NCBI GenBank assembly: GCA_964571825.1
Contig: CAZNDQ010000001.1
Coordinates: forward strand, 5,540 to 69,539
DNA: 64,000 nt
From: an uncultured Planctomycetales bacterium
Lineage (GTDB): Bacteria > Planctomycetota > Phycisphaerae > UBA1845 > G020352895
Direction of reading: 5' to 3'
Numbering within the stretch: the stretch's first letter is position 1; the number at the start of each line of letters is the position of its first letter. Position numbers and translations under genes: made by a program. Positions 8,911 to 61,787 of this stretch are shown here, piece by piece. The notes beneath the pieces were generated by a model, which had not been told where the DNA came from, searched no databases, and was given only the letters and a program-made list of their open reading frames with translations.

Positions 8911-9117
8911 GTGACCAGCGACACCACGGGCACACGCATCCGCGCCGCCAGGGAAGCCGCGGGGCTGACCCAGGCGGAGCTTGCGCGGCGTGCGGGCATG
9001 TCACGGGCGCAGCTGCACCAGCTGGAAACGGACTGGCGCGGACGGGTGCCCGATGTGCGGACTGTGCGCAAGTTGGCGGATGAATTGGGCGTTGCGTGGG
9101 CGGACCTGTATCCGTAG
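8911..9117 (+). CDS. XRE/Cro-like HTH protein
   Basis: RIRAAREAAGLTQAELARRAGMSRAQLHQLE is a classic HTH. GTG start. Confidence 0.65.
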   Translation: MTSDTTGTRIRAAREAAGLTQAELARRAGMSRAQLHQLETDWRGRVPDVRTVRKLADELGVAWADLYP

Positions 9118-9137
9118 AAAAATATGAGCGTGACCCC

Positions 9138-9165
9138 TTGCGTCGTGTATAGCCGTGGCTATACT
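9138..9165 (+). promoter_or_regulatory. class I promoter P4 (TTGCGT-N16-TATACT), leaderless
   Basis: -10 followed by AGGGAC-ATG, as in P3. Confidence 0.5.
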
Positions 9166-9171
9166 AGGGAC

Positions 9172-9678
9172 ATGAACGAGACGATGACCACCGCGTCGAC
9201 CTGGACCCACCCCTTCGAAGCCGCCGGCCTCGGCAAGGCGCCGTTCCGCTGCGTTGGTCGCGAGTCGTTCGCGGCAGGCGGCGGCGCTGGCCCCGGCGTG
9301 CGCGTCCTCGGCGAGACCAGCGATGGTGTACGCATCGAAACGTCGCCAGGCACCAGCTGCGACTACTGCGGCACGTACATCATCAACGCGTTCTGGATCC
9401 TCTCGTCCGACGCGCGCCGCTTCAAGGTCGGCTGTGACTGCGTCGCGAAGACCAAGGACGCCGCGCTGACGAAGCAGGTCAAGCGCCTCGTGTCGGAGGC
9501 TGCCGCGGCGAAGCGCAAGGCTCGCAACGCGGCACGGCGCGACGCGCGCCGCAACGGGCCGGCGAGTGCGGCGCAGATCGCGTACGCGCAGGAGCTTGGC
9601 GCGACGGCTGAGCAGGTGAGCGGCATCACGTTGGCGGACTGCTCGGCGCTGATCGACTCGCTGCGGAGGGTGTCGTGA
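9172..9678 (+). CDS. hypothetical protein
   Basis: ATG 7 nt after the P4 -10. 168 aa. Confidence 0.5.
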   Translation: MNETMTTASTWTHPFEAAGLGKAPFRCVGRESFAAGGGAGPGVRVLGETSDGVRIETSPGTSCDYCGTYIINAFWILSSDARRFKVGCDCVAKTKDAALTKQVKRLVSEAAAAKRKARNAARRDARRNGPASAAQIAYAQELGATAEQVSGITLADCSALIDSLRRVS

Positions 9679-35595: not shown

Positions 35596-35647
35596 TGCTT
35601 CCCTCCTCCGGTCTGTCGCGGTATTCGTGGCCCCGCGCGGCCGAAGG

Positions 35648-35720
35648 TCTGAGCGGCACGATTCGAACGTGCGACCCCGAGCACCCAAGGCTCGTGCGCT
35701 ACCAACTGCGCTACGCTCAG
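35648..35720 (-). tRNA. tRNA-Pro (anticodon UGG)
   Basis: Full cloverleaf read by hand: CTGAGCG-TA-GCGC-AGTTGGTA-GCGC-A-CGAGC-CTTGGGT-GCTCG-GGGTC-GCACG-TTCGAAT-CGTGC-CGCTCAG-A. Has C1:G72, G37 and A73. Confidence 0.9.
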
Positions 35721-59590: not shown

Positions 59591-59617
59591 ACCCGGTCAC
59601 CACGACGCGGGCACTCC

Positions 59618-59653
59618 AAAAGAAAAAGCCCGACCGCCTCGCGACGATCGGGC
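59618..59653 (-). terminator. Rho-independent terminator closing the Y-RNA cluster
   Basis: GCCCGATCG-TCGCGAGG-CGGTCGGGC followed by TTTTTCTTTT. Confidence 0.7.
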
Positions 59654-59672
59654 CGAACTACCATGGTGTCAG

Positions 59673-59796
59673 GGTCAACGGCGGGATTCGAACCCGCGAC
59701 CTCCCTCGTGCAAAGAGATAACCGTTCCGCTGCGGCCCGAATCGGGCAAAGAGGTGCGAGACGGAATAGGCGCTCTACCAGCTGAGCTACGTTGAC
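59673..59796 (-). ncRNA. tRNA-like RNA with a Y-RNA-type hairpin in place of the anticodon arm (module 3)
   Basis: Perfect acceptor (GTCAACG/CGTTGAC), D arm (GCTC-AGCTGGTA-GAGC) and T arm (GCGGG-TTCGAAT-CCCGC). A 68-nt insert carries CTTTGCCCG-ATT-CGGGCCGCAG..GGTTATC. Confidence 0.65.
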
Positions 59797-59843
59797 CGGT
59801 GTTCCCGGCTTGAATTGCACCAGCGTTACCGGCGTGAAAGGCG

Positions 59844-59894
59844 ATAACCCTCATGCTTCGGCCCGCGGACGGGCAAAGTGTTGCCGAGGGGTAT
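59844..59894 (-). ncRNA. Y-RNA-like module 2 (Ro-helix motif closed by a tetraloop)
   Basis: ATACCCCTC..CTTT-GCCCG-TCCG-CGGGC-C-GAAG..GAGGGTTAT folds as one long hairpin with a bulged C. Confidence 0.5.
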
Positions 59895-59929
59895 TGAACG
59901 GTGTCCTGCTCACTAGACGACGGGAACAG

Positions 59930-59992
59930 ATGTCGGGCAAGTTGGTGCGGCAGGGGAACATACCAGATAACCCTACCACTTCGGCCCGACAT
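59930..59992 (-). ncRNA. Y-RNA-like module 1 (compact, canonical topology)
   Basis: Termini pair as ATGTCGGGC/GCCCGACAT, with bulged C/G, AAGT/ACTT, GGTAGGG/CCCTGCC and loop TTATCTGGTATGTTC. The 5' end coincides with the predicted TSS. Confidence 0.65.
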
Positions 59993-59997
59993 GGAAA

Positions 59998-60035: not shown

Positions 60036-61787
60036 CTACGCGGCTGACGAATCTTCTGTGAGGCCACACGCGAACTCAGACAGGAGCTGCGGCGTGGCCG
60101 TGTCGAACCCGGCGACGTCGATCATGCCGGCGTCGCTCGGGTCTGCGATCGTGAACTCGGTCGCTTCCATTGCGACCACCGCGAGCTTAGCGTCGATGCC
60201 CATCTGCTGGCGGTACTGCTTCAGCGCGACGTGGGCATGCAAGTCGCCCTGCCACGTCTCGTTGTCAGTGTAGATGTGAAACACATCGACCGGCACCTTG
60301 TGCTCCATGGCCCACATCATCGGCAGGGCGCAGTCCGTGCCACCCATCGGGATCTGAGCGATCCGCTGCATCGCGTCGCCGATCCTCATGCGCGGCGAAA
60401 TGTCGACCGTGCTGATACCCGACCGCAGCGAGCTGTTGTGACCGTAGGCGCGGTACCCGGCGCTCGCCCACTGCCCGGTGCAACGCGGATGCGACCAACC
60501 CGCGTCAGCGCTGGAGAACGCCACCACGCCGCAGTTCGGCTCCACGGCCAGCGCAACCATCGCCATCGCGGTCGCAGCCTCGCGACACGAGACGAAGTCG
60601 ATCCCGGCGACCGGCGCGCCCATCGATCCTGACACGTCCAGCGCCAGCAGGTGCCGCTTGCCGGTCTTCGGCACGGCACCGAACGCCGCGTAGAACGCCG
60701 CGTCCAACGCGTCGGTGACCTGCGACACGGGCCCCCACGTCAGCGAGCCCTTCACGCCACAGCCGCGCGCGTACACCTTCTGCGCCGCCATCAGCGCGAT
60801 CGGGTGCATCCGGGCGCGGCGCAGTCGCTCGACATCGCCGAGCCGCTCCGCAACGGTGCGCGACGCATCGGACAGCGGCGCGATCAGCCCGACGCTCGTC
60901 ATCTTGCCGAGGTTGCGGATCATAGCCGTCATGGGCATGCCGACGAGTAGCGCCTCCCACACCTCACGGTGCGCAAGCAGCTCAGTCGGCACCATCTCGC
61001 GCGCGAGTCCGCGCTCCACAATGAGCTTCGCCGCTGCTTTGGGATCGGTCGCCAGCGTCTTGCACTCCTCGTACGCGGCGATCAGGTCGGGCAGGTGCCG
61101 CTTCAGTGCGCCCTGTTCCTCCACCGCGTCGCGGCGCTTCACGATGCGCTTGCCCATGCCGTCGCTGCCAGCCACGGCCCACCGAAGCGCGGCCTCGGCC
61201 GGTAGCTCCAGGTTGTCCGCGAGATGGCACAGGCGCAGCACGTCGCGATGCGACCAGCCGTTGCGCTGTTGGTACTTCACGAGCTGCAGCGCCAGCTGGT
61301 CGCCCGTCTTCGCCGCGTACCACTTGCCGACACCACGCCGCAGGCCGCGACCCCACCCGCGCAGCTCGTTGACGATCGCGACAAACTCGAACAGGTGCGT
61401 CCCGATGCGGCACACGTCGGGTAAGGCATCCAGCGCAGCACGGCGCGCCTCGGGCGACTCCGACGCTGCGCAGATGGCCAACGCGAAGATCGCCGGGCTG
61501 TTCTTTGGCGCGTTGCCGGCTTGACTCACCTCGGCGATCGTCCGCACGGTGCGCAGTGGATCGGCGACTACGCAGCGACGGACGGCGGCGGCGTTGTCCA
61601 GCGTGAGGGCGCGCTCCTTGACGTAGTAGGTGCCGCCCTCGCTGCCGAGGATCAGGAAGCGCTGCAACCGCGCCCAGTCGTCCACGACGAAGCTGTAGCC
61701 GCCCGCGTTGTTCTCCTGCTGCAACGGGGACACCGCCTCGGACTGCGGCGTGTGGATCGGGTTGAGTGCCGTGGTGTAGATGCTCAT
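60036..61787 (-). CDS. rsr: Ro60 / Rsr orthologue (TROVE plus vWA domains)
   Basis: NNAGGYSFVVDDWARLQRFLILGSEGGTYY (TROVE N-terminus) and C-terminal MIDAS LALDVSGSM. ATG at 61787 after the motif. The longer ORF upstream is not supported. Confidence 0.88.
   Translation of the reverse strand: MSIYTTALNPIHTPQSEAVSPLQQENNAGGYSFVVDDWARLQRFLILGSEGGTYYVKERALTLDNAAAVRRCVVADPLRTVRTIAEVSQAGNAPKNSPAIFALAICAASESPEARRAALDALPDVCRIGTHLFEFVAIVNELRGWGRGLRRGVGKWYAAKTGDQLALQLVKYQQRNGWSHRDVLRLCHLADNLELPAEAALRWAVAGSDGMGKRIVKRRDAVEEQGALKRHLPDLIAAYEECKTLATDPKAAAKLIVERGLAREMVPTELLAHREVWEALLVGMPMTAMIRNLGKMTSVGLIAPLSDASRTVAERLGDVERLRRARMHPIALMAAQKVYARGCGVKGSLTWGPVSQVTDALDAAFYAAFGAVPKTGKRHLLALDVSGSMGAPVAGIDFVSCREAATAMAMVALAVEPNCGVVAFSSADAGWSHPRCTGQWASAGYRAYGHNSSLRSGISTVDISPRMRIGDAMQRIAQIPMGGTDCALPMMWAMEHKVPVDVFHIYTDNETWQGDLHAHVALKQYRQQMGIDAKLAVVAMEATEFTIADPSDAGMIDVAGFDTATPQLLSEFACGLTEDSSAA

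What the first reader, a model, noticed from the sequence alone, without database searches (positions are those of the whole stretch)
59673..59796. tRNA-shaped RNA whose anticodon arm is replaced by a Ro-helix-like hairpin (topology inverted relative to described YrlA-type Y RNAs)
**The tRNA-like frame.** The minus strand reads GTCAACG-TA-GCTC-AGCTGGTA-GAGC-G...AGGTC-GCGGG-TTCGAAT-CCCGC-CGTTGAC-C. That gives a flawless 7-bp acceptor stem, D arm and T arm. About 68 nt occupy the place of a 17-nt anticodon arm.

**The insert.** It pairs CCGTCTCGC with GCGGAACGG. It is capped by GCCCG-ATT-CGGGC flanked by CTTT and C-GCAG. This is a degenerate third copy of the Y-RNA helix, closed by a loop exactly where canonical Y RNAs have free ends. 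Module 2 (59844..59894) has the same closed topology.

**Comparison.** As I recall the published YrlA class, the Ro helix there carries the termini and the acceptor-like stem is loop-closed. Here the acceptor ends are free and the Ro-like helix is closed.

**Possible roles (inference).**
- Each CTTTGCCCG strand could pair with either the upstream or the downstream CGGGCCGAAG strand, so alternative conformers are possible.
- The tRNA-like frame could recruit RNase P/Z to cut the polycistronic Y transcript.
- It could act as a decoy for tRNA-targeting nucleases.
Basis: partly seen in the sequence, partly recalled or inferred. Interest (0 to 1): 0.8.

Follow-up and report, generated by a model that had tools for sequence, protein, structure and literature searches.

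The report
Ro60 Y RNA built as tRNA
A phage carries, just after its Ro60 gene, small RNAs shaped like ordinary tRNAs whose anticodon arm is replaced by a loop-closed Ro60-binding helix; this wiring of the known tRNA-like bacterial Y RNAs recurs in at least 14 Ro60 loci, was not found described in the papers that could be read, and may be the link between tRNAs and those Y RNAs.

Summary
On the minus strand, 59796..59673 has a perfect 7-bp acceptor stem, a D arm and a T arm. Rfam's tRNA model scores it 48.2 bits with a 64-nt insertion; ARAGORN does not call it. About 68 nt replace the anticodon arm. They form a 9-bp stem, an internal loop, G•U, a bulged C and a 5-bp GCCCG/CGGGC helix capped by AUU, which is a Y-RNA Ro60-binding helix closed where canonical Y RNAs have their ends.

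It is not a one-off. I found 25 such elements in 17 loci, from uncultivated phage contigs and from Planctomycetota and Myxococcota assemblies. All 14 loci with enough flanking sequence carry a Ro60 gene on the same strand. Of the 20 core base pairs, 98% of cells pair and 18 show compensatory changes. 14 of 25 closing loops are GNRA, UNCG or CUUG tetraloops.

The window holds a second element at 59927..59800, an open-ended Y RNA at 59993..59930, and a terminator.

Best reading: a YrlA-type Y RNA in native tRNA connectivity, released by RNase P and 3' processing and bound by phage Ro60. Binding and processing are inferred.

I rate it a new variant of a known kind. One possibly relevant paper (b7a-tRNA) could not be read.

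The parts
60036..61787 (-). Ro60 (Rsr) ortholog gene, 583 aa counted from the ATG at 61787. The exact start is not verified.
   Evidence: Pfam TROVE (E 5e-48) and vWA_Ro60 (E 1.6e-60). ORF coordinates. Best relatives are 53% identical, in Planctomycetota and Polyangiaceae assemblies.
59930..59993 (-). Y RNA module 1: an ordinary open-ended Y-RNA hairpin. The Ro helix is formed by its two ends (GUCGGGC-C-GAAG ... CUUGCCCGAC). Its 3' end lies 2 nt before the next element.
   Evidence: Rfam nematode stem-bulge (Y RNA homolog) model at 48.7 bits against a gathering score of 38. Weak Deinococcus Y RNA hit. Fold.
59800..59927 (-). Second tRNA-framed Y RNA ('t2'). Acceptor GTTCCCG/CGGGAAC, D arm GTCT-AGTGAGCA-GGAC. 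Closed Ro helix GCCCG-UCCG-CGGGC-C-GAAG at 59874..59861. Diverged T arm GCTGG-TGCAATT-CAAGC. Discriminator A followed by CC.
   Evidence: Orthologous elements with a GTCT/GGAC D stem hold the same position between the Ro60 gene and a GCTC-type element in L087 and L119; in L121 that position is held by a GTGT/GCAC-type element. Rfam's tRNA model does not reach it.
59673..59796 (-). The finding ('t3'): a 124-nt tRNA-framed Y RNA.
   Evidence: Rfam tRNA 48.2 bits with a 64-nt insertion. Cloverleaf minimum-free-energy fold. Member of a 25-sequence family with strong covariation.
59790..59796 (-). t3 acceptor stem, 5' strand GUCAACG. It pairs with 59674..59680.
   Evidence: 7/7 pairs. All seven columns show compensatory changes across the family.
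59772..59787 (-). t3 D arm GCUC-AGCUGGUA-GAGC.
   Evidence: D-stem pairs are 100% paired in the family, with GCUC/GAGC, GUCU/GGAC, GUGU/GCAC, GUUC/GAAC and GUUU/AAAC variants.
59722..59764 (-). t3 Ro60-binding-type module. It reads: 3'-type strand CCGUCUCGC, internal loop ACCUCU, UU, GCCCG, loop AUU, CGGGC, bulged C, GC, A, 5'-type strand GCGGAACGG. UUAUC follows directly at 59717..59721.
   Evidence: Sequence. The same layout is present in all 25 members. 9-nt stem: 8/9 pairs here, and at least 8/9 in 19 of 25 members. In 21 of 25 it lies 6-8 nt from the apical helix.
59735..59747 (-). Apical helix GCCCG/CGGGC closed by AUU. This is the place where canonical Y RNAs have their 5' and 3' ends.
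   Evidence: Apical pairs are 88-98% paired in the family. 14 of 25 closing loops are GNRA, UNCG or CUUG tetraloops.
59681..59697 (-). t3 T arm GCGGG-UUCGAAU-CCCGC.
   Evidence: T-stem pairs are 98% paired, and 4 of 5 show compensatory change. Together with the preceding ~26 nt of the small-hairpin region it forms a 43-nt stretch 87-91% identical to the YrlA T-arm region of 189 cluster-C mycobacteriophages.
59673..59680 (-). t3 acceptor 3' strand CGUUGAC plus discriminator C (59673). The next base is C.
   Evidence: 22 of 25 family members have C directly after the discriminator and 2 encode a full CCA.
59617..59654 (-). Intrinsic terminator: 12-bp GC-rich stem followed by UUUUCUUUU. It closes the Ro60 / Y RNA transcription unit.
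   Evidence: Terminator scan. Fold.

Best explanation
The element is a Ro60-associated Y RNA of the YrlA (tRNA-mimic) kind, wired like a real tRNA rather than like a circularly permuted one. Free acceptor ends, the D arm, the T arm and all elbow contacts are kept. The anticodon arm is replaced by a Y-RNA-type Ro60-binding helix capped by a short loop.

**Proposed working.**
1. The phage transcribes rsr (Ro60), Y RNA 1, tRNA-framed RNA t2 and tRNA-framed RNA t3 as one unit, ended by the terminator at 59654..59617. This is inferred from strand, spacing and the absence of internal terminators.
2. The host tRNA maturation machinery cuts the modules apart. RNase P cuts at the 5' side of each 7-bp acceptor stem. 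3' trimming and the CCA-adding enzyme finish the encoded N73-C end. The RNase P cut before t2 would also create the 3' end of Y RNA 1, 2 nt upstream. This is inferred, by analogy with M. smegmatis YrlA, which RNase P cleaves and which receives CA in vivo (PMC4201824).
3. Phage Ro60 binds the bulged helix at the 'anticodon' end. The tRNA-like elbow and acceptor domain is the effector or protective module, as proposed for YrlA. It would tether Ro60 to a tRNA-recognising partner or to PNPase, and would make the RNA as nuclease-resistant as a tRNA. This is inferred.

**Shown here:** the anatomy, its conservation and covariation, and its strict linkage to Ro60 genes.
For: **tRNA frame**
- Rfam tRNA model 48.2 bits, E = 3e-7.
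- Minimum-free-energy cloverleaf.
- 25 homologs in 17 loci. The 20 core pairs are 98% paired, 18 show a change on both sides, 0/500 shuffles reach this, and slid controls pair 37-49%.
- The Levitt-type 15/48 columns pair in 83% of cells.

**Ro-type module**
- The layout matches the window's own canonical Y RNA 1 and the YrlA 5' strand: CGGGC-C-G..., GGUUAYC, and the same small hairpin before the T arm.
- The 9-bp stem is supported in 19 of 25 members.
- With the extended 37-pair structure, 84% of cells pair against 65% in shuffles.
- Two pairs at the top of the anticodon stem covary, with 6 and 4 pair types.

**Closure is selected.** Loops are 3-7 nt, and 14 of 25 are GNRA, UNCG or CUUG tetraloops.

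**Linkage to Ro60.** All 14 loci with enough flank have a Ro60 gene on the same strand, 83 nt to 1.8 kb away. The order Ro60, then a GUCU- or GUGU-type element, then a GCUC-type element is conserved in the window, L087, L119 and L121.

**Processing.**
- 22 of 25 members have C after the discriminator.
- The elements abut other Y RNAs or true tRNAs. In the window Y RNA 1 ends 2 nt before t2, and t2 ends 3 nt before t3. In L121 the element heads an array of 14 true tRNAs.

**Precedent.** M. smegmatis YrlA is cleaved by RNase P in vitro and in vivo, and CA is added.
Against: - No expression, end-mapping or Ro60-binding data exist for any member.
- The published YrlA motif GNCGAA(N0-1)G is only partly met in t3 (GCCGCAG).
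- Only the 5-bp apical helix lies beyond the bulge, against about 9 bp in Y RNA 1. Whether Ro60 tolerates a capped 5-bp helix is not known.
- Fixed-column pairing of the 9-bp stem is only 65%. Two central positions are mostly unpaired, and for t3 itself a second register scores equally.
- The fold z-score is weak, at -1.5.
- The family alignment was made with a model trained on 9 of its 25 members.
- t2 has a diverged T arm and is not seen by Rfam's tRNA model.
- None of the 11 cultured-phage Ro60 loci I inspected has this form. All members come from uncultivated sequence.
Confidence: 0.7

Rival explanations
1. The tRNA frame is an accident of tandem canonical YrlA genes. The D arm and 3' Ro strand would belong to one YrlA, and the 5' Ro strand and T arm to the next. 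The functional RNAs would have the usual closed-acceptor topology: the t2 5'-type strand pairing with the t3 3'-type strand.
For: - A tandem of canonical YrlAs would automatically place D, 3' Ro strand, 5' Ro strand and T in this order.
- Rfam's YrlA model gives a weak hit read that way: 59740..59851, 16.6 bits, E = 1.3.
- True tandem canonical YrlAs exist (Cashline, L010, L030, L034) and score 45-56 bits with my model.
Against: - Only 3 nt separate t2 from t3, and CGGGAAC and GTCAACG are not complementary, so no closed acceptor hairpin can form.
- The forced trans pairing is 5.8 kcal/mol worse than two closed tRNA-like domains.
- Acceptor strands within each element are perfectly complementary and covary in 25 members.
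- The Ro strands are joined by 3-7-nt, mostly tetraloop, caps.
- Single-copy members exist in L018, L038, L050 and L104.
- Scores fall into two groups: 62-117 bits for 22 of the 25 members, 48-56 bits for the other three (L119 9125, L002, L064), which overlap the 45-56 bits of tandem junctions and were assigned by anatomy and acceptor pairing.
Confidence: 0.04
2. It is a real (or decayed) tRNA gene interrupted by an intron or insertion. After splicing it would be an ordinary tRNA.
For: - Rfam's tRNA model scores it, and 13 of the 21 relatives in the scanned loci, above the gathering score.
- The phage carries a true tRNA-Pro.
- In L121 the elements sit at the head of a tRNA array.
Against: - No anticodon stem-loop is left. 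Only two or three pairs at the top of the stem remain.
- The 68 nt have a conserved architecture of their own, with Y-RNA motifs.
- At 68 nt it is far smaller than bacterial group I tRNA introns (established knowledge). It replaces the arm rather than interrupting the loop.
- ARAGORN, which allows introns, calls none of the 25.
- The elements are strictly linked to Ro60 genes.
Confidence: 0.02
3. It is a tRNA-framed RNA whose partner is not Ro60 but another protein. That would place it in the wider group that includes the Band-7-associated 'b7a-tRNA' of Burroughs and Aravind 2016, or the DUF2828-associated class seen here. On this view the Ro-like motifs are convergent or vestigial.
For: - A second class of tRNA-framed RNAs with a different insert (hairpin plus ACAGCAA) lies next to DUF2828/vWA proteins and sometimes Band_7 proteins in phage contigs.
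- Wang et al. 2018 report that b7a-tRNA is occasionally encoded next to Rsr.
- An AT-rich Ro-like variant (L138, L177, L183, L194) has no Ro60 gene in the held flanks.
Against: - The insert carries the Y-RNA signature shared with the adjacent canonical Y RNA 1 and with YrlA 5' strands.
- 14 of 14 informative loci have Ro60 proper (TROVE + vWA_Ro60) on the same strand.
- No Band_7 or DUF2828 hit was found among the nine ORFs scanned between 52976 and 63917.
Confidence: 0.1
4. Same molecule, different main job. The RNA would act chiefly as a competitive inhibitor or decoy for host tRNA-directed defence enzymes, or as punctuation for RNase P/Z processing of the operon, rather than as a Ro60 tether.
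For: - It is phage-encoded.
- Hughes et al. 2020 raise the idea that the YrlA tRNA-like domain could inhibit an anticodon nuclease (PMC7790460).
- Element ends abut the ends of neighbouring Y RNAs in the window and in L002, L050, L064 and L113.
Against: - There is no anticodon loop to be cut or bound by anticodon-specific nucleases.
- The conserved Ro-type helix would not be needed for punctuation or decoy roles.
- Nothing here tests it.
Confidence: 0.12

Closest known systems
[quoted passage not shown] 2014, PMC4201824; structure in Wang et al. 2018, bioRxiv 10.1101/312249; Rfam RF02553)
   Same: - Encoded next to a Ro60 ortholog.
- Same D-arm and T-arm sequences (GUAGCUCAnnnGGUAGAGC, GCGGGUUCGAAUCCCGC) and the same tertiary-contact bases.
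- Same 5' Ro strand CGGGCCG...GGUUAYC, followed by a small hairpin and then the T arm. A 43-nt stretch is 87-91% identical to cluster-C mycobacteriophage YrlA.
- The Ro-binding helix occupies the anticodon-arm position of the L shape.
   Different: - Connectivity differs. In YrlA the RNA ends are in the Ro helix and the acceptor stem is a closed hairpin, in the order T, acceptor stem, D. Here the ends are in a 7-bp acceptor stem and the Ro helix is closed by a 3-7-nt loop, in the order D, Ro helix, T.
- The 'AA' of the GNCGAA motif is not conserved.
- Rfam's YrlA model gives 16.6 bits against a gathering score of 69. Canonical actinophage YrlAs also miss that threshold.
Processed Mycobacterium smegmatis YrlA (RNase P-cleaved, CA-added two-piece RNA; Chen et al. 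2014)
   Same: - A 7-bp acceptor stem with free ends.
- An encoded C after the discriminator, completed to CCA.
- A tRNA-like domain attached to a Ro helix.
   Different: - There the open acceptor end arises by cleaving a closed loop, giving two RNA pieces held by base pairing, with the Ro helix also open.
- Here a single continuous chain has the open acceptor end encoded in the gene order, and the Ro helix is closed.
Deinococcus radiodurans Yrn1
   Same: - A Ro60-bound Y RNA with a T arm and some D-loop features.
- The D-like element precedes the T arm, as in a tRNA.
   Different: In Yrn1 the Ro helix with the RNA termini sits where the acceptor stem would be, and a closed 'anticodon arm' lies between D and T. 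Here the acceptor stem is real and the Ro helix is the anticodon arm.
b7a-tRNA (Band-7-associated tRNA-like RNA; Burroughs and Aravind 2016, known to me only through its citation in bioRxiv 10.1101/312249)
   Same: [quoted passage not shown]
- Linked to RNA-repair-type loci.
- Said to lie occasionally next to Rsr.
   Different: - The defining neighbour is an SPFH/Band-7 protein, which is absent here.
- Its published structure could not be consulted.
- The tRNA-framed class that I found next to Band_7 and DUF2828 genes has a different insert (hairpin plus ACAGCAA) without the Ro helix.
Circularly permuted tRNA genes (red alga Cyanidioschyzon merolae and others; cited in Wang et al. 2018)
   Same: They show that tRNA-shaped RNAs exist in both gene orders, and that RNase P/Z open or define acceptor ends.
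   Different: Those are true tRNAs that are re-joined into normal tRNAs. Here the permutation relation is between two kinds of Y RNA, and no ligation step is implied.

Membership tests
YrlA-type Y RNA | Encoded adjacent to a Ro60/Rsr ortholog | tested here: met
   A Ro60 gene (TROVE + vWA_Ro60) ends 240 nt upstream on the same strand. The same linkage holds in 14 of 14 informative loci.
YrlA-type Y RNA | tRNA-like domain with conserved D and T arms and the tRNA tertiary-contact nucleotides | tested here: met
   [quoted passage not shown] The 15/48 columns pair in 83% of cells.
YrlA-type Y RNA | Ro60-binding helix with a bulged, conserved 5' strand (GNCGAA N0-1 G motif) | tested here: inconclusive
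   The bulged C and CGGGC-C-G are present. t3 reads GCCGCAG, one deviation from the motif. t2 and Y RNA 1 read GCCGAAG, an exact match. In the class the base after CCG varies.
YrlA-type Y RNA | RNA termini in the Ro helix, acceptor-like stem closed by a loop, T arm 5' of D arm | tested here: not met
   The order is D arm, closed Ro helix, T arm, with a free 7-bp acceptor stem. Compare Issimir and Cashline.
YrlA-type Y RNA | Reaches the Rfam RF02553 gathering score | tested here: not met
   16.6 bits against 69, and only when read across two elements. This is not diagnostic, because canonical YrlAs of Issimir and Cashline also fail.
YrlA-type Y RNA | Physically bound by Ro60 | not testable with these tools
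   Needs immunoprecipitation or a gel-shift assay.
Canonical tRNA | Acceptor, D and T arms in cloverleaf order | tested here: met
   Rfam tRNA 48.2 bits over model positions 1-71.
Canonical tRNA | 5-bp anticodon stem with a 7-nt loop carrying an anticodon | tested here: not met
   A 64-nt insertion replaces model positions 29-41. Only 2-3 top pairs of the stem remain. ARAGORN makes no call for any of the 25 members.
Intron-containing bacterial tRNA gene | Group I intron inserted in an otherwise intact anticodon loop | tested here: not met
   The insert is 68 nt. No Rfam intron family matched, even at E up to 10. No anticodon stem-loop halves flank the insert.
b7a-tRNA (Band-7-associated tRNA-like RNA) | Encoded next to an SPFH/Band-7 protein, often with RtcB | tested here: not met
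   Nine ORFs between 52976 and 63917 were scanned against Pfam. None matched Band_7 or RtcB.
b7a-tRNA (Band-7-associated tRNA-like RNA) | Published consensus sequence and structure | not testable with these tools
   The defining paper (Burroughs and Aravind 2016) is not held in the library.

The most novel reading that the evidence does not exclude
These RNAs may be the ancestral, unpermuted form of YrlA: a tRNA whose anticodon arm became a Ro60 site. Canonical YrlA would then arise when tandem copies fused, taking the T arm of copy n, the spacer-closed acceptor stem, and the D arm of copy n+1. Because they keep a native 7-bp acceptor stem with an N73-C(CA) end, the mature RNAs could also be genuine substrates of the CCA enzyme and possibly of an aminoacyl-tRNA synthetase or EF-Tu. 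That would give a Ro60 particle physically coupled to the translation or tRNA-surveillance machinery. Together with the DUF2828-associated class, this would define a general phage strategy of tRNA-scaffolded guide RNAs for Ro-like ring proteins.
Probability: 0.2. Interest if true: 0.85.

Novelty: new variant of a known kind. Interest (0 to 1): 0.62.

Why it matters
**Open question on origin.** Bacterial Y RNAs of the YrlA type are known as circularly permuted tRNA mimics. How they arose is open; the published model is descent from dimeric tRNA transcripts. What the tRNA-like domain does is also open.

**What this class adds.**
- A conserved, Ro60-linked class with native tRNA connectivity is a concrete candidate intermediate. 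In a tandem array of such elements, the stretch from one 5'-type Ro strand to the next 3'-type strand has exactly the canonical YrlA order, including the small hairpin before the T arm. Arrays with 3-10-nt spacers exist in the window and in L075.
- These Y RNAs should mature through RNase P, 3' trimming and CCA addition. Their ends would therefore be predictable, and they would be easy to express, to purify with Ro60 and to test.
- The class supplies a natural test of whether Ro60 needs free helix ends.

**Practical point.** These genes are scored as 'tRNA' by Rfam's model and ignored by ARAGORN. They are therefore mis-annotated or missed in phage and metagenome annotation.

Tried and rejected
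**Detectors and folding**
- ARAGORN on the window and on 14 member loci made no call for any element.
- The Rfam YrlA model gave only 16.6 bits in a cross-element register. It proved uninformative, because canonical actinophage YrlAs also fail the threshold.
- The single-sequence fold z-score (-1.5) is too weak to use as evidence.

**Searches for relatives**
- BLASTN of the locus against 50,697 phage genomes found only a 43-nt T-arm match to cluster-C mycobacteriophages. BLASTN with the L119 pair of elements found nothing.
- I surveyed 11 cultured-phage Ro60 loci: Issimir, Cashline, Sixama, SM23, Blueeyedbeauty, Jay2Jay, Phosso, Sparky and FuzzBuster, plus L116 and L190 from IMG/VR. These had canonical YrlAs or nothing. 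One doubtful element in Blueeyedbeauty (L257 390-530) has a wobble-rich acceptor stem, and I did not count it.
- The pattern GCCCG-N3-7-CGGGCCG-N9-14-GTTAYC gave 58 IMG/VR hits, about the number expected by chance. Only the ~13 that lie in a tRNA frame were kept.

**Alignment**
- The MAFFT alignment of the insert region was off by one column for some rows. I therefore used a covariance-model alignment and a separate per-sequence register test with shuffles.
- A small hairpin between UUAYC and the T arm is visible in most sequences. It does not hold up in fixed columns (53% paired), so I make no claim about its exact pairs.

**Hypotheses set aside**
- Alternative cross-module pairing is 5.8 kcal/mol worse.
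- The intron hypothesis was rejected (see rival explanations).

**Literature**
- Seven full-text searches found no description of this topology.
- Four possibly relevant items could not be opened: the 2020 Annual Review on bacterial Ro60, the 2018 Microbiology Spectrum chapter, Burroughs and Aravind 2016, and the supplements of Chen et al. 2014.
- I did not use the metagenome scan or the protein-database searches, because the viral and genome collections gave enough.
Full report
**1. What is in the window**

The window is 67% G+C and encodes terminase, tail sheath, baseplate and tape-measure proteins. It is therefore a myovirus-like phage or prophage genome. It has no close relative among 50,697 deposited phage genomes.

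The minus strand carries, in order:
- **61787..60036:** a Ro60 ortholog (Pfam TROVE E 5e-48, vWA_Ro60 E 1.6e-60).
- **59993..59930:** a small hairpin RNA that Rfam matches to the nematode stem-bulge (Y RNA homolog) family, at 48.7 bits against a gathering score of 38.
- **59927..59800:** a first tRNA-framed element, 't2'.
- **59796..59673:** the finding, 't3'.
- **59654..59617:** a 12-bp G+C-rich hairpin followed by a U run, an intrinsic terminator.

**2.

- The acceptor stem GUCAACG/CGUUGAC is 7/7 paired.
- The D arm is GCUC-AGCUGGUA-GAGC and the T arm is GCGGG-UUCGAAU-CCCGC.
- The bases that build the tRNA elbow are all present: U8, A14, G18G19, G15 with C48, and T54-Psi55-C56, A58 and the G53:C61 pair of the T arm.

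Rfam's tRNA model aligns positions 1-71 end to end at 48.2 bits (E = 3.2e-7 for the window). It places a 64-nt insertion instead of the anticodon stem-loop. ARAGORN does not call it.

Folded alone, the RNA adopts the cloverleaf frame with one long arm tipped by GCCCG-AUU-CGGGC. The energy is not unusual for its composition (z = -1.5), so the case has to rest on comparison.

**3. Anatomy of the insert**

From the D stem onward the RNA reads:
- G26.
- Two or three pairs that correspond to the top of the anticodon stem (C27-G94, C28-G93).
- A linker.
- A 9-nt strand, CCGUCUCGC.
- An internal loop, ACCUCU.
- UU.
- GCCCG, loop AUU, CGGGC.
- A bulged C.
- GC, then A.
- The 9-nt partner strand, GCGGAACGG.
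- UUAUC.
- A small hairpin region.
- AGGUC.
- The T arm.

Strand for strand, this is the helix of the canonical Y RNA 1 next door (GUCGGGC-C-GAAG-UGGUAGGG-UUAUC ... CCCUGCCGC-ACCAAC-UU-GCCCGAC). It is joined at the end where Y RNA 1 has its termini, and open at the end where Y RNA 1 has its loop.

**4. Comparison with described YrlA**

I read a canonical YrlA in mycobacteriophage Issimir upstream of its annotated Ro-like gene. I read two more in Gordonia phage Cashline.

- Their order is 5' Ro strand, GGUUACC, small hairpin, T arm, closed acceptor-like hairpin, D arm, 3' Ro strand.
- That is the arrangement published by Chen et al. 2014 (PMC4201824) and crystallised by Wang et al. 2018. [quoted passage not shown]

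The window element uses the same parts. Its T-arm region is 87-91% identical over 43 nt to 189 cluster-C mycobacteriophages. The connectivity, however, is that of a normal tRNA.

**5. It is a conserved class, always with Ro60**

*How the members were found.*
- I collected 74 Ro60 loci by protein similarity from species-representative genomes and from IMG/VR.
- A simple scan showed D-arm then T-arm pairs 93-108 nt apart in nine of them, besides the common canonical T-then-D pairs.
- A covariance model built from nine sequences found further copies that were not in the training set.
- Two pattern scans of IMG/VR found more.

*What resulted.*
- In all there are 25 distinct elements in 17 loci.
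- Every locus with enough flanking DNA (14 of 14) has a Ro60 gene on the same strand, 83 nt to 1.8 kb away, upstream or downstream.
- Hosts include Gemmataceae, other Planctomycetota and Polyangiaceae assemblies, and many uncultivated viral contigs.

*Covariation.* On the model-based alignment, the 20 pairs of the acceptor, D, apical and T helices behave as follows:

| Measure | Value |
|---|---|
| Cells forming a standard pair | 98.0% |
| Pairs with a change on both sides | 18 of 20 |
| Cells with such a change | 135 |
| Shuffles reaching these values | 0 of 500 |
| Pairing when the 3' partner is slid 1-3 columns | 37-49% |

All seven acceptor pairs covary; for example, column 2/155 is GC 8, AU 7, CG 5, UA 5. 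Adding the rest of the proposed structure (37 pairs) still gives 84% pairing against 65% in shuffles.

*The 9-bp stem.* It is weaker in fixed columns, at 65% paired, with two central positions usually unpaired. A per-sequence test finds at least 8 of 9 pairs in 19 of 25 members. In 21 of 25 the stem lies at a constant 6-8 nt from the apical helix, in sequences that differ widely.

*Other detectors.* ARAGORN calls none of the 25. Rfam of the 21 members in the 13 scanned loci 'tRNA', plus t3 in the window. No other Rfam 15 family matches.

**6. The closed end is selected, not accidental**

- The loops that cap the Ro helix are 3-7 nt long.
- 14 of 25 belong to the extra-stable tetraloop classes: GCAA x4, GAAA x2, GUGA, UUCG x4, UCCG, CUUG x2.
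- Single-copy elements exist (L018, L038, L050, L104), so the frame does not depend on a neighbouring copy.
- In the window only 3 nt separate t2 from t3, and their facing acceptor strands are not complementary. A canonical closed acceptor hairpin therefore cannot form between them.
- The minimum-free-energy structure of the 255-nt t2+t3 dimer is two separate acceptor-closed domains with closed apical hairpins, at -94.9 kcal/mol. Forcing the t2 5'-type strand onto the t3 3'-type strand gives -89.1 kcal/mol.

Thermodynamics alone would not exclude a minor population.

**7. The second element and the locus plan**

t2 (59927..59800) has:
- a 7/7 acceptor stem, GUUCCCG/CGGGAAC;
- a D arm, GUCU-AGUGAGCA-GGAC;
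- the closed helix GCCCG-UCCG-CGGGC-C-GAAG, an exact match to the published GNCGAA-G motif;
- a diverged T arm (one G.A mismatch, loop UGCAAUU).

Elements with this GUCU/GGAC D stem stand between the Ro60 gene and a GCUC/GAGC-type element in L087 and L119, and next to GCUC types in L075. In L121 a GUGU/GCAC-type element stands in that position. The window therefore carries two conserved, distinct tRNA-framed species. t2 is not simply a decayed copy of t3.

**8. How it most likely works**

*Shown:* the structure, its conservation, and its linkage to Ro60.

*Inferred:* the steps below.

The flanks speak for maturation by the tRNA machinery.
- The acceptor stem has 7 bp. Chen et al. name this length as the determinant that makes M. 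smegmatis YrlA an RNase P substrate.
- 22 of 25 members have a C directly after the discriminator, and two encode a full CCA. In M. smegmatis YrlA, 'CA' is added post-transcriptionally to give CCA.
- Element ends coincide with the ends of neighbours. Y RNA 1 ends 2 nt before t2.
- In L002, L050, L064 and L113 a GGGCCGA strand of another Y RNA begins 4-7 nt after the discriminator.
- In L121 the pair heads an array of 14 true tRNAs.

I therefore propose three steps:
1. One transcript runs from the Ro60 gene to the terminator.
2. RNase P, 3' processing and CCA addition release the modules.
3. Phage Ro60 binds the bulged helix. The tRNA-like body acts as the stable effector module, as proposed for YrlA.

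A decoy role against anticodon nucleases is unlikely in the literal sense, because no anticodon loop exists. Competition for elbow- or acceptor-binding enzymes is not excluded.

**9. Is it known?**

Seven full-text searches found only the closed-acceptor YrlA, the RNase P-cleaved M. smegmatis case, and Deinococcus Yrn1. In Yrn1 the Ro helix with the termini takes the acceptor position.

Wang et al. [quoted passage not shown] I could not open that paper, two reviews, or the supplements of Chen et al. 2014. Prior mention of tRNA-like genes beside Rsr therefore cannot be excluded.

I found no description of a Ro-binding helix closed in the anticodon position.

I rate it a new variant of a known kind. 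The parts and the partner are those of YrlA. The connectivity is new, and so are its consequences: free acceptor end, single chain, capped Ro helix.

**10. Evolutionary reading (inference)**

In a tandem array of the elements described here, the stretch from one 5'-type Ro strand to the next 3'-type strand has exactly the canonical order: 5' Ro strand, small hairpin, T arm, acceptor 3' strand, spacer, acceptor 5' strand, D arm, 3' Ro strand.
- In L075 two adjacent copies have near-identical acceptor stems (GUUGUGG and GUUGUAG) separated by 8 nt.
- L064 holds both a tRNA-wired element and a T-arm then D-arm pair 44 nt apart, the spacing of a canonical YrlA, which I did not inspect further.

This makes the class a plausible intermediate between tRNA and YrlA. 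The direction could equally be the reverse, and it needs a phylogeny.

**11. Seen on the way**

The same IMG/VR scan returned more than 120 tRNA-framed RNAs with 55-85 nt in place of the anticodon arm.

A second coherent class replaces the Ro helix by a short hairpin plus a conserved ACAGCAA.
- In 14 of 26 loci it lies next to a 480-570-aa protein that matches Pfam DUF2828 + DUF7788 + vWA.
- That protein family aligns to Ro60 at 74% hhalign probability, E = 2.9e-5.
- Four of the loci also have a Band_7 protein.
- This may be the published b7a-tRNA.

Together the two classes suggest that Ro60-like proteins of phages generally come with tRNA-scaffolded RNAs.

**12. Limits**

- No experimental data exist for any member.
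- The family alignment was produced by a model trained on nine of the members.
- The register of the 9-bp stem in t3 itself is ambiguous between two 8/9 solutions. I chose the one shared by the family.
- The start of the Ro60 gene and the 5' end of Y RNA 1 are not defined.
- Only 11 cultured-phage Ro60 loci were inspected, so absence from cultured phages is not established.

Noticed in passing
L159 6304-6877; L160 9482-9825(-); L179 11133-11246(-); L235 3717-4287; L236 ~2421; L163; L209; L214; L201 1483-1597; and others: A second class of tRNA-framed RNAs in IMG/VR phage contigs, 105-127 nt long, with a perfect acceptor stem and D and T arms. The anticodon arm is replaced by a short hairpin, a conserved ACAGCAA and a small hairpin with a CUGUUAA-like loop. 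They often occur in tandem arrays of 2-4. In 14 of 26 loci they lie 170-1060 nt from a DUF2828 + DUF7788 + vWA protein (10/10 members match, best E 1.7e-42). That protein aligns to Ro60 at 74% hhalign probability. Four loci also have a Band_7/SPFH protein. Rfam 15 knows them only as 'tRNA'. This is possibly the 'b7a-tRNA' of Burroughs and Aravind 2016.
   Followed up: partly
L177 147-270(-); L194 72-197(-) and 303-433(-); L138 4110-4237(-); L183 7089-7217(-): An AT-rich variant of the Ro-type tRNA-framed RNA (CUCCC-GCAA-GGGUUGUGA ... GGGUUACUU). No Ro60 gene lies in the held flanks, which reach up to about 4 kb on either side. The partner may be encoded elsewhere or may be the host's.
   Followed up: no
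L116 ~560-650; L040 6700-6820: Loop-closed Ro-type helices without a recognisable tRNA frame (for example GACUUGCCCG-GAAA-CGGGCCGUGG...GGUUACC), beside Ro60 genes and beside canonical or tRNA-framed Y RNAs. Capping the Ro helix is therefore not confined to the tRNA-framed class.
   Followed up: no
L087 6525-6658(-); L119 9328-9462; L121 6810-6944(-): Three members carry an extra GNRA-capped mini-hairpin between the D arm and the Ro module (CCC-GCAA-GGG, CGC-GAAA-GCG, GGGC-GAAA-GCCC). This is a lineage-specific expansion.
   Followed up: no
L121 1483-6944(-): The two tRNA-framed Y RNAs lie about 1 kb downstream of the Ro60 gene and head an array of 14 true tRNA genes on the same strand. The first true tRNA (Arg-CCU) begins 4 nt after the element, which suggests shared processing.
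   Followed up: partly
L168 8968-9094: A member whose 3' end encodes a full CCA (…CCGGCCC-A-CCA). The next copy, at 9104-9229, has a broken acceptor stem (3/7 pairs) and may be decaying. No Ro60 gene lies in the held 10 kb, and the elements sit near the end of the locus.
   Followed up: no
L002 ~2511; L050 ~2320; L064 ~1944; L113 ~3678(-): Four to seven bases after the discriminator of the tRNA-framed element, a GGGCCGA strand begins, the 5' strand of another Y-RNA Ro helix. One cleavage could therefore define both RNAs, as with Y RNA 1 and t2 in the window.
   Followed up: no
L257 390-530 (Streptomyces phage Blueeyedbeauty, 65993-66133 of MH536814.1): A possible tRNA-framed Y-like RNA in a cultured phage. 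It has a D arm, CCUAAAAA, CGGGUCGGAG...GGUUAUC and a T arm, and lies among tRNA genes 2 kb upstream of the Ro-like gene in an unannotated gap. Its acceptor stem pairs only 6/7 with three wobbles, and the apical helix is unclear. I did not count it.
   Followed up: partly
window 35646-35720(-): A true tRNA-Pro (UGG), the only conventional tRNA of the window. It lies within the tail-gene region.
   Followed up: no
L001 (Issimir) and L254 (Cashline): Rfam's YrlA model (RF02553) does not reach its gathering score on clear canonical YrlAs of actinophages. The family as curated is narrower than the published class.
   Followed up: partly
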